64,000 nucleotides of DNA from a virus (IMGVR_UViG_3300033145_001087:47431-111430), one strand, 5' to 3'; shown: positions 11,402-26,984, counted from the first letter of the stretch. Notes: generated by a model not told the origin, from the letters alone. Numbers and translations: made by a program.

Positions 11402-11884
11402 TCACCTATTAAAATATGCTATCCGTATAGTAACCGAACCAAAATAAAGTTGGGTATCGGGGTCGTATTCAATACGAGATGTATTTATATGTTTATACAT
11501 CTTAACCCCTGCGGTATGAAGTGTGTTAAATTGAGCTTTTAATGTTTGTTTAATTTGTCCTAACCCATATTCTACTAATTGTGAATTTTTATATTCAACC
11601 TCAGATACAGTAACTTTAAAACCATTTTTGCTTTGAAACCAAACATTTAAGAATAATTGTTCGTATTCCATATAATTATCTCCTATATCTATAGGAATTG
11701 TTGGGTTATCTACTTTTTTAATTTCTATTTTAGGAAATTTAGCGTGAGTAGATGGTTCATCGGAAAAGACCCAGAGAGAGCCACCTCTATAGTTACCACC
11801 GGCAGTTTCATAGGGGTCAATCATATAAGTTCTTAATACATTTCTTATTTCCTTTATTGCGGTTATTGAATCCGTTTTAAACAC
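11402..11884 (-). CDS. tail terminator-like protein (start may be ACG at 11875)
   Basis: FPKIEI and FLNVWFQ motifs, ~160 aa, neck position; the annotated GTG lies inside the SD GGGGGTG. Confidence 0.65.
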   Translation of the reverse strand: MFKTDSITAIKEIRNVLRTYMIDPYETAGGNYRGGSLWVFSDEPSTHAKFPKIEIKKVDNPTIPIDIGDNYMEYEQLFLNVWFQSKNGFKVTVSEVEYKNSQLVEYGLGQIKQTLKAQFNTLHTAGVKMYKHINTSRIEYDPDTQLYFGSVTIRIAYFNR

Positions 11885-12539
11885 CCCCTAACATCTCTTT
11901 TAATATCTCTTTCCCAAAATCTATAAACTATATAATCCTGAGATTCTATAAATATTTTACTTGTTTAGCATCTCTAGGTTTGCCTTTTGGATAATGATGC
12001 CAATAATCCCCATCACACATAATTATTGTATTTATTTCAGGTAACCAAAAATCAGCGATTCCTAATTTATAAGGATGCTGTTTTATATATAAAAGGTCGT
12101 TAAAAAGTAATTCATTTTCGACCAACCGTTCTATTTTAGTATCTGCTACTAACATATTACCCTCTTTTAATTGTTTAATAGTAGATTCTCTGTTTTGTTC
12201 ACGTAATTGTTCAGCTTTTTCTTTACCATAAAGTTCTTTATATGTTTTGCCCTTCATTGGGTGTATATGATTTTTCCAATGATTCTTTAATCCTTTTGCT
12301 GATTTTTTAACAGACGTTGGGTCACGTTTTTTACCTAACCAAAACCCACCAGATTCTTTCATTCGTTCTTTAGTTTTCTTGCTAATAACCGTTCGTGTTT
12401 CTTCTGAATATTTATTACCATAATTTGGATTATTTTTACCAATATTATGTATGGTATTCCATTTACCTTGGCATTTTCTATTACAAAAAGACTTATTACT
12501 AGTTAATTTACTACAATATTTACAATTATTACTATCCAT
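11863..12539 (-). pseudogene. free-standing homing endonuclease (Zn finger + NUMOD3-like + Vsr/DUF559-like nuclease), frameshifted near the 3' end
   Basis: CKYC..FCNRKC; GKNNPNYG and HPMKGKT motifs; ADFWLP..CDGDYWH; stop at 11948-11946, but the family C-terminus ESQDYIVYRFWERDIKRDVRGCLKRIQ* continues in another frame to 11863. Confidence 0.8.
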
Positions 12540-12609
12540 TTTCTGCCCTCGGCGAGAACCATACACCCTACGGGAATATACTATTATCTATATAGGTATA
12601 GTAATACAA

Positions 12610-12630
12610 CTTCTCCTATATAAATGTTTC
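12610..12630 (-). promoter_or_regulatory. archaeal BRE-TATA promoter, late class
   Basis: GAAACATTTATATAGGAGAAG, identical to the minus-strand site at 34391-34411. Confidence 0.8.
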
Positions 12631-12642
12631 TATTAGTATATT

Positions 12643-12780
12643 TTATCCAGTAAATCGTGGTTCTTTATTATTTGATGTTCTTTTATTAACATCTATTACA
12701 AAATCTGTTTCTATTACCTTTTGTTTATCTTTTTTTGTAATATTAAATCCTTTATCAAGTTTTTTTGTTATTTTACTCAT
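12643..12780 (-). CDS. 45-aa hypothetical protein (not in ORF track)
   Basis: MSKITKKLDKGF...EPRFTG*; SD GGTGA; fills the gap after the adaptor gene. Confidence 0.55.
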   Translation of the reverse strand: MSKITKKLDKGFNITKKDKQKVIETDFVIDVNKRTSNNKEPRFTG

Positions 12781-12784
12781 TTAT

Positions 12785-13678
12785 TCACCATCCTACACTA
12801 CCGATATAATTATTTTTATCAAAGTTTTGTGTAACTCTTCTCCTATTAACACCATAAATTGGGTCATAATTTTGTACTTGTGAACTTAATTGTACACCAA
12901 TACTATGTGATAATAGTTTTTCTACTTCTGTGACCCTTGTATTTATTACTCCTAATTCTTTACTACTTGTACCACCAGAAGTCATATCAAGTTTTTCTAA
13001 TAACCGTTGACATGTCCTATACAGAGATAACTTATGGAAAATACTAGGCACATAATGTATATCTATTTCACAAGTAGTTTCTAGAGTATACCCACTAGAT
13101 GCATATGGTAAAACTTCTATCATACCATATTGATTATTTGTTTTATAATGGTCATCTAAAAAAAATTCAAATTTAGTTGTTGTGCCATAAAAAACTCTAT
13201 CTACTCTATAGATATTTTCTTCTCCTACATAATACCTTTGCTGAACTGTATTATTTATTTTTCCTATTACAGAATATGATGCTTTTAATGGTGTTCCTGA
13301 TTCTATATAAATAAGGTCATCCACTTCTGTAATTGCATTAAATACATCATCATCTGTCCATCTTCCTACAGTATCTAATATATTTTTAATATCGTCTACT
13401 GTACAAAGCCGTAAAAGTTCTTCTGATGCTGTTGGGTCTGAATAATCTGAATAATATGTTCCATCATAAAATCTTATTTTATACCAATGAGTTTTTGTCC
13501 CACTTGCATCTGTATATGTTGTTACCCAAGTATTTGCTGAAGTTTTTGCTTCACCATCACTTGTTGCGTTTATAGTATCTAATACCGTATAAGTTCCATA
13601 AATACTTGAACTTCTACTAATTTCTACGCTGGTAACTGTTGTTTCTCCTGGTGCTAACCACGAAATCTTTCTTGCCAT
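12785..13678 (-). CDS. head-tail adaptor-like protein with N-terminal Fn3-like domain
   Basis: Fn3-like segment (ISWLAP..YTDASG..WYKIRFYDG..SDYSDP) followed by LCTVDDIK, typical of gp6/gp15-type connectors. Confidence 0.6.
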   Translation of the reverse strand: MARKISWLAPGETTVTSVEISRSSSIYGTYTVLDTINATSDGEAKTSANTWVTTYTDASGTKTHWYKIRFYDGTYYSDYSDPTASEELLRLCTVDDIKNILDTVGRWTDDDVFNAITEVDDLIYIESGTPLKASYSVIGKINNTVQQRYYVGEENIYRVDRVFYGTTTKFEFFLDDHYKTNNQYGMIEVLPYASSGYTLETTCEIDIHYVPSIFHKLSLYRTCQRLLEKLDMTSGGTSSKELGVINTRVTEVEKLLSHSIGVQLSSQVQNYDPIYGVNRRRVTQNFDKNNYIGSVGW

Positions 13679-25365: not shown

Positions 25366-25383
25366 TTTTATTTCCTCCGTTTA

Positions 25384-25842
25384 TTATCTATTAGCATTCC
25401 ATTCAGTATAAGTTTCTGTTAACTCTATAGGAACCTTAATATAACCACAAGCTACTGTTATATTAGCATCTACTGTAGTTACTACTTCCAATCTTGCATT
25501 TTTCCAGCCTTGCCATTTACCTTGAAATGAAACAGAAAATACTACAGGAGCATCTGTAGCATCTGCATCTAAAATACTAATAGTTTCTGTATCGTCTGTA
25601 AATTGAATTGTTATAACATTCCCTGCTTTTTTTTCAGATGAAATTACTAAATCTGTCAAATAAAGACTCCCATCTGTAATTGGAGAAGTTATTATACTAG
25701 TTCCAGCAGTTGTTCTAGATACTGATTTAAAAGCCCCTTTTATATGACAAGGAGAACAAGTTACAAGTGTTTCTCCAATTAAAGTTTTTTCTACACAAAG
25801 TGCTTTATTATTTTTTAAATTAATTAAATGTGTTTTTACCAT
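25384..25842 (-). CDS. putative small virion beta-sandwich protein
   Basis: Start moved to MVKTHL to remove overlap; LTDLVISS..CGYIK. Confidence 0.5.
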   Translation of the reverse strand: MVKTHLINLKNNKALCVEKTLIGETLVTCSPCHIKGAFKSVSRTTAGTSIITSPITDGSLYLTDLVISSEKKAGNVITIQFTDDTETISILDADATDAPVVFSVSFQGKWQGWKNARLEVVTTVDANITVACGYIKVPIELTETYTEWNANR

Positions 25843-25852
25843 TATTTTTAAC

Positions 25853-26395
25853 TTAACTATTTTCTTGAAAATAACCAAAAATATTTGCAGATACTGTTCC
25901 AGTAGCATTTATAGTAACAGCAAGTTCATCACCAGTATCTAATATTATAGCCCCATCTGTAGGAAATTTTTTTGGATTATGTGCAGGTGTATGAATACTA
26001 TAAATAGTTTCTCCTGTTAAAGTACCTGTTACTGCAGCGTTTCCATAAGAAGTTACTAATGGTGTTTTACCAGAACCGAAATTTAGATTTCTTCCTGTAA
26101 TAGTTGTTCCAGCGGCTGTTCCACTAGTTACTTTAAACAATGTCCATAAAGTATTTACAGTATTACTAAAACCAACTCTATAAATATGTAATGATTTTAA
26201 AGTATCTGTATTTTTGATATAAATAATTTCATCTCCAGCAGTAGCACCAAATGTACTTACCCAACCATATGCTTCTCCTTCTTCCGCCTCTGCTTGTATT
26301 TCATGTCGAACAGTTGCATGTGTTTTTAATCTATTTCTACTATCTACTCCAGCAATATTACTATTCCCTTCACCATCTTCAATTCTTAGACCCAT
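25853..26395 (-). CDS. putative virion protein, paralog of 26406..26960
   Basis: Start MGLRIEDGEGN after SD GGTGG; shares YIKN and G(T/G)T(T/A)IT..N.N.GSG with its neighbour. Confidence 0.55.
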   Translation of the reverse strand: MGLRIEDGEGNSNIAGVDSRNRLKTHATVRHEIQAEAEEGEAYGWVSTFGATAGDEIIYIKNTDTLKSLHIYRVGFSNTVNTLWTLFKVTSGTAAGTTITGRNLNFGSGKTPLVTSYGNAAVTGTLTGETIYSIHTPAHNPKKFPTDGAIILDTGDELAVTINATGTVSANIFGYFQENS

Positions 26396-26405
26396 TTTTC
26401 CACCT

Positions 26406-26960
26406 TTACTCTTGTTTATGATAATTAAATGATACATATAAATGTATATTTATCCCACCAGTTACTGCATAAAATGTAATGGTTCTATTTTTAGGTATTA
26501 CTATTGATTGGTAAAATTCATATGTATGAGATGCACCATCTGCACTAACTGCTATTCTATCTAATGAATTTCCATCACTCAATCCAGTTATATCATTTCC
26601 TTGTTCAAAAGTACCATCTGCTTGATGTCCACTACCTAAATTAGTATTTTGTGGAGTAATAGCTGTTCCGCCAGAAGGTGTCCCAGAATCATTTTTCTGT
26701 ATAATAATTATTTCATTACTTGCAACATATAATTTTATTCTAGATATTATCATATCTATTTCTGAATCATTTTTTATATAAGCAAAACAATCATCAGCAC
26801 CAGTAGGAGTTACTGTAAAATATGCTTTATATCCTTGTCCTTCTTTATGTGAAATATAATGTTCTCTAGATTCTGTCATTGCACCAACATTTAACATTTT
26901 ATCTGAATTTACTTTTGCTAAATTACCATTACCTGTTCCATCACGTATCATTTCTGGAAT
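26406..26960 (-). CDS. putative virion protein, probable ATT start
   Basis: SD GGGGTG + ATTAAA + ATT; (I)PEMIRDGTGN aligns residue for residue with the paralog's MGLRIEDGEGN. Confidence 0.55.
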   Translation of the reverse strand: MPEMIRDGTGNGNLAKVNSDKMLNVGAMTESREHYISHKEGQGYKAYFTVTPTGADDCFAYIKNDSEIDMIISRIKLYVASNEIIIIQKNDSGTPSGGTAITPQNTNLGSGHQADGTFEQGNDITGLSDGNSLDRIAVSADGASHTYEFYQSIVIPKNRTITFYAVTGGINIHLYVSFNYHKQE

Positions 26961-26984
26961 TTTAATCACCCCTTATTATATAAT

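What the first reader, a model, noticed from the sequence alone, without database searches (positions are those of the whole stretch)
11402..26969. Three late genes appear to use non-AUG starts (ATA, ATT, ACG) in the same context
Seen on the minus strand: TGAGGG-ATTAAA-ATA (17556, repeat protein), GGGGTG-ATTAAA-ATT (26960) and GGGGGTG-TTTAAA-ACG (11875). Each has a good SD at this genome's usual spacing, then TTAAA, then a codon one base from ATG. The repeat gene has about 240 in-frame repeat-encoding codons with no ATG/GTG/TTG. The ATT aligns exactly with Met1 of the adjacent paralog. A plus-strand TTG start has the same context (GAGGT-ATTAAA-TTG, 50102). Inference: near-cognate initiation used to lower the stoichiometry of minor virion proteins, suggesting relaxed start-codon selection in the host. 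The ACG case is the weakest because a GTG overlaps its SD.
Basis: partly seen in the sequence, partly recalled or inferred. Interest (0 to 1): 0.7.

Follow-up and report, generated by a model that had tools for sequence, protein, structure and literature searches.

The report
Non-AUG start codons, archaeal virus
This 111-kb tailed virus, very probably of archaea, and its relatives appear to begin about one in twenty genes, including the DNA polymerase, at AUU, AUA or ACG placed exactly where AUG normally sits behind a strong ribosome-binding site, so standard gene finders truncate these proteins.

Summary

- **Repeat gene:** the 1289-codon frame has no ATG/GTG/TTG for 244 codons. ATA 17556 sits 6 nt after GAGGG.
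- **B gene:** ATT 26960 aligns with Met1 of 81 of 133 homologues. None starts at the downstream ATG 26951.
- **C gene:** ACG 11875 aligns with Met1 of its orthologues.
- **Outside the window:** the same genome starts its family-B DNA polymerase at ATT, with no canonical alternative, and probably its dUTPase too.
- **Related contigs:** ATT or ACG occupies the same slot in PolB, in the C gene, in the major tail tube gene and in a fourth gene. Four of these cases have an in-frame stop that rules out any canonical start upstream of the slot.
- **SD strength:** near-cognate sites have stronger Shine-Dalgarno (SD) pairing than the ATG orthologues of the same genes (p = 0.004).

The idea that near-cognates serve to lower the dosage of minor virion proteins is not supported, because PolB and the tail tube are affected. 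The host is unidentified, so relaxed start selection in the host remains an inference.

This scan noted the same habit earlier on other DNA (Loki-type Asgard archaea, giant viruses), and other readers of this genome noted the PolB and repeat-gene cases. No proteomic evidence exists.

The parts
13696..17556 (-). Repeat-protein gene (about 1286 codons) read from ATA 17556. The first canonical codon is TTG 16833.
   Evidence: the frame is open from the TGA at 17568-17566 and has no ATG/GTG/TTG for 244 codons; the stand-alone homologues P0126 and P0131 start with Met plus an 11-16 aa leader, then repeats. Their Met1 aligns one codon after the ATA.
17563..17567 (-). SD GAGGG of the repeat gene, 6 nt before ATA 17556. 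It overlaps the 3' arm of a leader hairpin.
   Evidence: duplex -9.0 kcal/mol; spacing 6; fold.
17565..17598 (-). Two leader hairpins, CGTA-ATACAA-TACG (17598-17585) and CTCA-ATTCAA-TGAG (17578-17565). This is the same layout as the leader of the upstream 902-aa gene, which ends in TAGG-ATAAA-ATG (20314).
   Evidence: The shared layout puts ATA 17556 at the position where the other leader has its ATG.
17526..17531 (-). Out-of-frame ATG-TAA (start-stop) behind AAGGGAG-TATTTT, inside the repeat frame. This is the rival start site.
   Evidence: One search shows that the frame upstream of it (GKGVFYVIR) aligns with homologue N-termini, so it is judged a chance or regulatory element and not the gene start.
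26406..26960 (-). Gene B (184 aa from ATT 26960). The predicted fold is a beta-sandwich, jelly-roll-like.
   Evidence: Met1 of 81 of 133 homologues falls on the ATT, 0 on ATG 26951, 1 is longer, and P0157 begins MPEMIKDG; pLDDT 91.8, weak jelly-roll matches.
26966..26974 (-). SD AAGGGGTGA of gene B (duplex -13.2 kcal/mol). It contains the in-frame GTG 26969.
25853..26395 (-). Paralogue of B, with a canonical start (AAGGTGG-AAAA-ATG).
11402..11875 (-). Gene C (157 aa from ACG 11875), a conserved neck/tail-region gene upstream of the tail tube gene.
   Evidence: 10 distinct orthologues have ATG exactly at this codon, one has ATG one codon upstream, and two have ATT (L027, L036).
11882..11888 (-). 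SD GGGGGTG of gene C (duplex -12.9 kcal/mol). It contains the in-frame GTG 11884.
50091..50104 (+). GAGGT-ATTAAA-TTG, the only SD-led TTG start found in the genome.
9539..10645 (-). Tail tube gene (ATG here). Its orthologues in relatives carry ATT (L003, L036) or ACG (L031) at the start slot.
   Evidence: (PF18906, E 6e-26).
12617..12629 (-). AAACATTTATATA, an archaeal BRE/TATA-like promoter motif upstream of the endonuclease gene and gene C.
   Evidence: 6 hits with at most 1 mismatch against 1.46 expected, all intergenic and co-oriented; the same motif lies upstream of C orthologues in relatives.

Best explanation
These are genuine translation start sites. The SD pairs with the 3' end of 16S rRNA and places the small ribosomal subunit so that its P site lies 6-7 nt downstream. 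Initiator Met-tRNA then starts on AUU, AUA or ACG instead of AUG, probably at reduced efficiency.

In this genome the habit affects the repeat protein (AUA) and PolB (AUU) with no possible alternative. It very probably also affects gene B (AUU), gene C (ACG) and dUTPase (AUU). That is about 5 of 92 SD-led starts.

The same slot holds AUU or ACG in orthologues across related uncultured viruses. So it is a habit of the clade, and by inference a tolerance of the host's archaeal-type initiation apparatus (aIF1/aIF1A/aIF2).

Shown here: the sequence geometry, the lack of alternatives, the alignment to orthologue Met1, recurrence in independent assemblies, and stronger SDs at these sites.

Inferred: that Met is the first residue, that efficiency is lower, and that host start selection is relaxed.
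For: No-alternative cases:
- PolB. A TGA lies two codons upstream of the ATT, and the first canonical codon is number 63. The 62 residues in between are the conserved PolB N-terminus. Met1 of about 10 orthologues sits exactly on the ATT. A public gene call is truncated to 1073 aa (P0001).
- Repeat gene.

Relatives:
- PolB has ATT in L009/L010 (two separate metagenome assemblies) and in L015, where a TGA is in frame and the first canonical codon is number 84. The close relative L011 has ATG at the same place.
- Gene C has ATT in L027 and in L036, where an in-frame TGA lies inside the SD.
- The tail tube gene has ATT in L003 and L036 and ACG in L031. The g5464 orthologue in L040 has ACG behind an in-frame TAG.

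Gene B: Met1 of 81 of 133 homologues falls on the ATT and none on the downstream ATG. That ATG lies 15 nt from the SD, beyond the maximum of 11 nt seen for any SD-led ATG here.

Whole-genome scan: all five unexplained ORFs have near-cognates at the modal 6-7 nt.

SD pairing: median -12.0 kcal/mol at 10 near-cognate sites against -9.3 at 24 ATG orthologue sites (Mann-Whitney one-sided p = 0.004).

Leader layout: the two-hairpin layout is shared by an ATG gene and the ATA gene.

SD-embedded GTG: the GTG-N6-ATG arrangement, with the GTG in frame inside the SD, recurs at ordinary ATG genes (23695, 28695 and 49860). An in-frame GTG inside an SD is therefore a by-product of the spacing.
Against: There is no protein-level or ribosome-level evidence.

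For B, C and dUTPase, an in-frame GTG embedded in the SD cannot be excluded by sequence alone. B also has a downstream ATG.

The genome is a metagenome assembly and reads could not be inspected. It also carries one clear 7-nt frame disruption in another gene, so not every oddity in it need be functional.

The SD comparison includes some related, non-independent sites (the L003 and L036 tail tube genes).

The host, and therefore its start-codon fidelity, is unknown.
Confidence: 0.75

Rival explanations
1. Genes B, C and dUTPase use a nearby canonical codon instead: the GTG embedded in the SD (26969, 11884, genome 30387) or, for B, the ATG 26951. Only PolB and the repeat gene would then need a non-canonical start.
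For: These codons are in frame with no intervening stop. The single dUTPase orthologue found (L015) has a Met at about the position of the GTG.
Against: - The GTGs have no SD of their own (duplex +1.3, -3.0 and -1.3 kcal/mol) and lie inside the sequence that pairs with the rRNA.
- No C orthologue (0 of 13) and only 1 of 133 B homologues has such an N-terminal extension.
- ATG 26951 is 15 nt from the SD, against a maximum of 11 nt seen elsewhere. No homologue starts there, and the residues PE upstream of it are conserved.
- L036 (gene C) and L040 (g5464 orthologue) show the same slot codons with an in-frame stop that removes the GTG option.
Confidence: 0.15
2. The repeat gene starts at the out-of-frame ATG 17531 (AAGGGAG-TATTTT-ATG-TAA). 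It reaches the repeat frame by a 1-nt assembly error, a frameshift or hop, or by termination-reinitiation on the overlapping ATT 17526.
For: A good SD with an ATG at 6-nt spacing lies inside the first 12 codons. The genome has another gene interrupted by 7 nt next to a TAT..TAT pair.
Against: - The ATG is followed at once by TAA, and no matching landing codon exists.
- An SD plus ATG in a 60-nt stretch is expected by chance about once in ten (my estimate from the counts).
- The frame upstream of the ATG (GKGVFYVIR) aligns with the N-terminal leaders of P0126 and P0131, whose Met1 falls one codon after ATA 17556.
- The leader hairpin layout points to the ATA.
Confidence: 0.05
3. The near-cognate codons are sequencing or assembly errors, or inactivating mutations in a defective genome. 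The genes are then either normal ATG genes or dead.
For: This is a single metagenome assembly, reads were not available, and one other gene is clearly disrupted.
Against: - Five start codons would have to be hit in one genome.
- The same substitutions recur at the same slots in at least seven other contigs from different samples. L009 and L010 are identical there.
- The ORFs behind them are intact for up to 1286 codons.
- The affected sites have stronger-than-average SDs, which random errors would not select.
Confidence: 0.04

Closest known systems
Bacterial AUU starts of infC (IF3) and pcnB in E. coli. NCBI table 11 lists ATT, ATC and ATA as rare starts (own knowledge).
   Same: An SD-led start at a codon one base from AUG, read by initiator tRNA at reduced efficiency. 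Gene finders miss it.
   Different: Those starts are conserved per gene and tied to IF3 autoregulation in bacteria. Here the setting is an archaeal-type virus, the codons are scattered among orthologues, the frequency is about 5% of SD-led starts, and ACG (not in table 11) is included.
Near-cognate initiation sites in Haloferax volcanii ribosome profiling (PMC7261190), and aIF1-dependent discrimination against non-canonical starts in Sulfolobus (cited in PMC6237735).
   Same: Archaeal initiation at near-cognates is observed. About 30% of putative alternative sites were near-cognate. The P. abyssi aEF1A start region GGAGGUGAUUUAAAUG has the same SD and spacer architecture.
   Different: Those sites were alternative or internal and were set aside as possible false positives. 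Here near-cognates are the only possible main starts of essential genes.
ACG and CUG starts of eukaryotic viruses that set capsid stoichiometry (AAV VP2, Sendai C'; own knowledge).
   Different: Those rely on scanning and leaky initiation within one mRNA. Here the start is SD-positioned, and the polymerase and the major tail tube are affected too.
Earlier notes of this scan: ATT/ATA/ATC/ACG starts 5-7 nt after a GGTGA-type SD in Loki-type Asgard archaea (e1-5589371, e1-5588724 and others).
   Same: The same SD type, spacing and codon set, including ACG.
   Different: Those are cellular genomes. I found no link between this virus and Asgard hosts, and those notes are unverified AI notes.
Translational bypassing or frameshifting (T4 gene 60, prfB; own knowledge).
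   Same: Considered for the repeat gene and for the split phosphoesterase gene (TAT-TGA-G-TAT).
   Different: The repeat gene has no matching take-off and landing codons, and homologue N-termini argue against this reading.

Membership tests
SD-led near-cognate (non-AUG/GUG/UUG) start sites | No canonical start codon between the upstream in-frame stop and conserved coding sequence | tested here: met
   Met for the repeat gene (244 codons) and PolB (63 codons), and in relatives for L015 PolB, L036 gene C and L040 g5464. Not strictly met for B, C and dUTPase, which have an in-frame GTG inside the SD.
SD-led near-cognate (non-AUG/GUG/UUG) start sites | SD at the genome's functional spacing from the proposed codon | tested here: met
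   All five sites have 6-7 nt from the last G, which is the mode for 93 SD-led ATGs. Duplex energies are -8.5 to -13.2 kcal/mol, against a median of -8.5 for ATG genes.
SD-led near-cognate (non-AUG/GUG/UUG) start sites | The codon aligns with Met1 of orthologues | tested here: met
   PolB, gene C, gene B (81 of 133), repeat gene within one codon.
SD-led near-cognate (non-AUG/GUG/UUG) start sites | The protein N-terminus or initiating ribosome maps to the codon | not testable with these tools
   The virus is uncultured and no proteomic or ribosome-profiling data are available.
infC-type autoregulated AUU start | The AUU is conserved across orthologues of one regulatory gene, with factor-dependent feedback | tested here: not met
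   Start codons vary among orthologues. PolB has ATG x5, ATT x3, TTG x2 and GTG x1. Gene C has ATG x11, ATT x2 and ACG x1.
Programmed bypass or frameshift (T4 gene 60 / prfB type) for the repeat gene | A take-off codon followed by a stop, with a matching landing codon that restores the frame | tested here: not met
   ATG-TAA has no downstream ATG landing site, and the frame upstream of it is homologous coding sequence.
Archaeal tailed virus | Archaeal/eukaryotic-type replication and recombination genes and BRE/TATA-type promoters | tested here: met
   RadA with HhH plus Rad51 domains (E 6.7e-75), PCNA, an RFC-like clamp loader and PolB. The AAACATTTATATA motif is enriched and co-oriented. The nearest cellular PolB N-termini are from Methanomicrobiales and Halobacteria. 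The host itself is not identified.

The most novel reading that the evidence does not exclude
Frequent AUU/AUA/ACG starts would be a fingerprint of the host's initiation machinery, that is, an archaeal lineage with relaxed, eukaryote-like near-cognate tolerance. One candidate is the Loki-type Asgard archaea in which this scan noted the same SD, spacing and codon set. Start-codon usage would then both predict the host of this widespread, uncultured virus clade and show that whole virus-host systems run with about 5% non-canonical starts, ACG included.
Probability: 0.2. Interest if true: 0.8.

Novelty: new variant of a known kind. Interest (0 to 1): 0.62.

Why it matters
If these starts are real, gene finders limited to ATG/GTG/TTG systematically truncate or miss proteins in this virus clade. 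The public call of this genome's DNA polymerase already lacks 62 conserved residues.

It would also show that archaeal-type initiation can use AUU, AUA and even ACG as the main start of essential genes when the SD is strong. That bears on how aIF1-based start selection compares with bacterial IF3 and with eukaryotic scanning.

The clade is widespread in anoxic metagenomes (Antarctic Ace Lake, a municipal landfill). Start-codon usage might therefore become a host-prediction signal for it.

Tried and rejected
**Code and tRNAs**
- Genetic code 4 (TGA read as Trp) does not give the repeat gene a start. Read by eye, the frame still meets TAA at 17613.
- The virus carries only tRNA-Pro and tRNA-Trp, with no odd initiator tRNA.

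**Fusion of the repeat ORF with the upstream 902-aa gene**
- Rejected. Homologues with long N-terminal domains do not match that gene.
- Stops lie in all frames between the two genes.

**Searches that found nothing useful**
- No near-identical phage record. No PHROG hits for the genes concerned, and no Pfam hit above the curated cut-off.
- IMG/VR held no relatives of B or of the repeat gene. Neither gene matched in the larger relatives searched: five records for B, three for the repeat gene.
The DNA behind P0126, P0131, P0157 and P0006 could therefore not be read.

**Host identification failed**
- Gene C has no relative in genome contigs.
- The closest PolB-bearing genome contig is a probably mis-binned contig in a 'Planctomycetia' MAG.
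- Cluster look-ups gave no names.
- The RFC-like clade is virus-only, apart from one probably contaminant contig.
- The protein atlas was uninformative.

**Analysis that had to be redone**
- A first slot-codon tally was confounded by codons next to real ATGs. The orphan-SD analysis replaced it.
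Full report
**What the window is**

The window is genome positions 47431-111430 of a single 111,430-bp virus record. It has 29.7% G+C and a 114-bp terminal overlap, so it is a circularly closed metagenome assembly.

It encodes an archaeal/eukaryotic-type replication set:
- a family-B DNA polymerase with an intein,
- an RFC-like clamp loader and PCNA,
- a RadA with an HhH domain plus a Rad51 domain (E 6.7e-75),
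- an anaerobic ribonucleotide reductase.

It also has tailed-virus structural genes. Gene 9539-10645 is a tail tube protein (PF18906, E 6e-26).

The motif AAACATTTATATA occurs six times with at most one mismatch, against 1.46 expected (0 of 100 shuffles reach six). Every copy is intergenic and co-oriented with the genes downstream. The motif also precedes orthologous genes in relatives. It looks like an archaeal BRE/TATA promoter.

I therefore treat the genome as a tailed virus of an archaeon, as two earlier follow-ups on this genome also did. The host itself could not be identified.

The three minus-strand contexts and the plus-strand TTG context read exactly as quoted.
- The repeat frame is open for 1289 codons, from the TGA at 17568-17566 down to 13696. 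Its first ATG/GTG/TTG is at codon 244, and the roughly 13-residue repeats already run from about codon 17.
- Gene B's ATT aligns with Met1 of the adjacent paralogue. The paralogue's true start is the SD-led ATG 26395.

**The genome's normal start geometry**

I took all SD-like blocks on the coding strands and asked where a start-like ATG lies. Start-like means an in-frame stop within 12 codons upstream and at least 60 open codons downstream.
- The distance from the last G of the block to the ATG peaks at 6-7 nt (50 of 93). The range is 3-11 nt.
- The spacer is typically A-rich (TAAAAA, ATAAA, TTAAA).
- This is the same architecture as the Pyrococcus abyssi aEF1A start region, GGAGGUGAUUUAAAUG (PMC6237735).
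- Among SD-led canonical starts the genome uses ATG 86 times, TTG once (50102) and GTG never.

**An unbiased scan finds five orphan ORFs**

Across the whole genome, five ORFs have a strong SD in start-like context but no canonical codon in the slot. Their slot codons, each at 6-7 nt, are:

| ORF | Slot codon and position |
|---|---|
| Gene B | ATT, window 26960 |
| Repeat gene | ATA, window 17556 |
| Gene C | ACG, window 11875 |
| PolB | ATT, genome 38080 |
| dUTPase (PF00692, E 1.4e-36) | ATT, genome 30396 |

Seventeen control SD-like blocks just inside already-explained ORFs carry mixed slot codons, and only four include a near-cognate. By my hypergeometric calculation, five of five against four of seventeen gives p of about 0.005.

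The five sites pair with the anti-SD at -8.5 to -13.2 kcal/mol. The median for confident ATG genes is -8.5.

**PolB is the cleanest case**

- A TGA inside the SD closes the frame two codons before the ATT.
- The next canonical codon is number 63.
- The 62 residues between them are the conserved PolB N-terminus, ending in FRPYFYV.
- In an alignment with 23 metagenomic homologues, Met1 of about ten (MFL[IV]E...) falls exactly on the ATT.
- The public gene call for this very genome is the truncated 1073-aa form (P0001).

In related IMG/VR contigs the same slot holds different codons:

| Slot codon | Contigs |
|---|---|
| ATG | L008, L011, L014, L019, L044 |
| TTG | L007, L012 |
| GTG | L013 |
| ATT | L009 and L010 (two separate metagenome assemblies), L015 |

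In L015 a TGA is in frame upstream and the first canonical codon is number 84. L011 and L009 encode the same first 15 residues but differ in ATG against ATT.

**Gene C**

Thirteen distinct orthologues were recovered.
- Ten have ATG exactly where this genome has ACG (MDSITAI... against (T)DSITAI...). L031 has ATG one codon upstream.
- L027 has ATT behind GGGTGG-TTAAA.
- L036 has ATT behind GAGGTGA-ATTACG, and there an in-frame TGA inside the SD removes any GTG option.
- No orthologue has the three-residue extension that a start at the SD-embedded GTG 11884 would give.

**Other genes in relatives**

A survey of all genes shared with the relatives' loci added two more cases.
- The major tail tube gene has ATT in L003 and L036 (GAGGTGG-TTACG-ATT) and ACG in L031 (GGGGTGG-TTAAA-ACG). 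Seven other distinct contigs, and this genome, have ATG.
- The orthologue of gene 5096-5464 in L040 has ACG behind GGGGGGA-TTAAC. An in-frame TAG lies just upstream and the first canonical codon is number 24. That ACG aligns with Met1 of this genome's copy.

Across C, tail tube, PolB and g5464, the ten near-cognate sites have stronger SD pairing than the 24 ATG orthologue sites. Medians are -12.0 against -9.3 kcal/mol (one-sided Mann-Whitney p = 0.004). Some sites are related, so this test is indicative. Stronger SDs at weak start codons are what one expects if a weak start must be compensated, and not what random errors would produce.

**Gene B**

B had no orthologue in IMG/VR or in five larger relatives. 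An exhaustive profile-free search found 735 homologues. Of 133 full-length ones aligned:
- Met1 falls on the ATT codon in 81,
- two residues later in 51,
- further upstream in one,
- on ATG 26951 in none.

P0157 begins MPEMIKDGTGSG against (I)PEMIRDGTGNG here, so the two residues before ATG 26951 are conserved coding sequence. That ATG is also 15 nt from the SD, beyond anything seen for an SD-led ATG in this genome.

A high-confidence model (pLDDT 91.8) shows a beta-sandwich with weak jelly-roll and fibre-knob matches. This fits a virion decoration or fibre protein but does not name it.

**Repeat gene**

Homologues of the repeat region exist.
- Some carry long N-terminal domains.
- P0126 and P0131 are stand-alone: Met, then an 11-16-residue leader, then repeats.
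- Their Met1 aligns one codon after ATA 17556, and the leaders share a G-x-F motif.

The upstream 902-aa gene is not a missing N-terminal part.

The leader holds two small hairpins with AUNCAA loops, and the 3' arm of the second overlaps the SD. The leader of the 902-aa gene has the same layout and ends in TAGG-ATAAA-ATG. That places ATA 17556 at the equivalent position.

An out-of-frame ATG-TAA behind a second SD lies at 17531. I considered it as a start followed by a frameshift, a hop or reinitiation. The homologous coding sequence upstream of it argues against that.

**Why the SD-embedded GTGs are unlikely starts**

With five or six spacer bases after GGTGA, the GTG of the SD falls in frame automatically. 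The same GTG-N6-ATG arrangement recurs at ordinary ATG genes here, at 23695, 28695 and 49860. The embedded GTGs of B, C and dUTPase have no SD of their own. They cannot be excluded by sequence alone, so I rate these three cases lower than PolB and the repeat gene.

**Interpretation**

The best reading is SD-positioned initiation at AUU, AUA or ACG.
- It is a habit of the virus clade, not a device of particular genes. The codons are scattered among orthologues.
- They affect a polymerase, a nucleotide-metabolism enzyme, a neck-region protein, a probable decoration protein, a giant repeat protein and, in relatives, the major tail tube.
- It fits tolerance: ATG-to-ATT/ATA/ACG changes survive where the SD is strong.

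Two further points are open.
- All five genes are internal to operons, so translational coupling may help. This was not tested.
- From my own knowledge, the use of ACG recalls the eukaryotic rather than the bacterial hierarchy of near-cognates. That would suit aIF1/aIF2-based selection. This is inference only.

**Literature**

- aIF1 is reported to discriminate against non-canonical starts in Sulfolobus (cited in PMC6237735).
- In Haloferax ribosome profiling, about 30% of putative alternative initiation sites were near-cognate but were set aside (PMC7261190).
- My searches found no description of near-cognate main starts in archaeal viruses.

**Earlier notes of this scan**

- The same habit was reported in Loki-type Asgard archaea and in giant viruses.
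- Other first readers flagged the PolB ATT and the repeat-gene ATA in this genome.
- I reached PolB independently and tested all of these here.
- The Asgard link is only a lead. I found nothing that ties this virus to an Asgard host.
- At least two of the relatives' samples come from Ace Lake, Antarctica, and a municipal landfill.

**Limits**

- No reads, proteomics or ribosome profiling were available.
- The host is unknown.

Noticed in passing
genome 13862-14378 (L006:163-679), outside the window: A metallophosphoesterase gene is split. SD-ATG...GAT ACT CAT TAT TGA G TAT GGG CAT encodes MRYWFTADTHY, then a stop. The frame resumes as (E)YGHKNIIKY. Skipping 7 nt (TGAGTAT) restores the D-x-H-x-G-H motif seen in the intact orthologue of relative G001 (MIWFTADYHLGHKNIIKY). 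It is either a frameshift lesion or assembly error, or a short TAT-to-TAT hop over a stop.
   Followed up: partly
window 17565-17598, 20321-20356, 24907-24924 (minus strand): Small hairpins with AUNCAA loops lie in the leaders of the repeat gene, the 902-aa gene and gene 24880. In two leaders the 3' arm of the second hairpin overlaps the SD. They could be operators for an RNA-binding protein. The fold energy of the repeat-gene leader is not unusual (z = -0.2).
   Followed up: partly
window 11946-12539 (minus strand): A NUMOD3 plus Vsr-like (homing-type) endonuclease gene lies between gene 12785-13678 and gene C. It is absent from the same place in relative L003, while L030 and L040 hold a 40%-identical copy. 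It starts at an SD-led ATG 12539, not at the GTG 12566 of an ORF list.
   Followed up: partly
genome 38080-41484 (L004:181-3585): The PolB is 1134 aa, against about 790 aa in most relatives, and carries a LAGLIDADG-type intein (PF14528). Several relatives carry inteins too.
   Followed up: no
window 12617, 24956, 34398, 34425, 56759, 61037: AAACATTTATATA-type BRE/TATA-like motifs mark operon starts. They include a divergent pair at the strand switch near 34400.
   Followed up: partly
L009 / L010 around position 10001 / 6247: In this relative the gene caller extended PolB to an ATG embedded in the SD (GGTG-ATG-AAG-ATT, protein MKIFLIE...). The SD-positioned codon is the ATT. In L012 the public call starts 16 codons too early, and the SD-led start is TTG. 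N-termini in public protein sets of this clade are therefore unreliable.
   Followed up: partly
window 25384-25908: The ORF-list start ATG 25908 overlaps the preceding gene by 56 nt and has no SD. ATG 25842 (MVKTHLINL...) is the more likely start, also without a clear SD.
   Followed up: no
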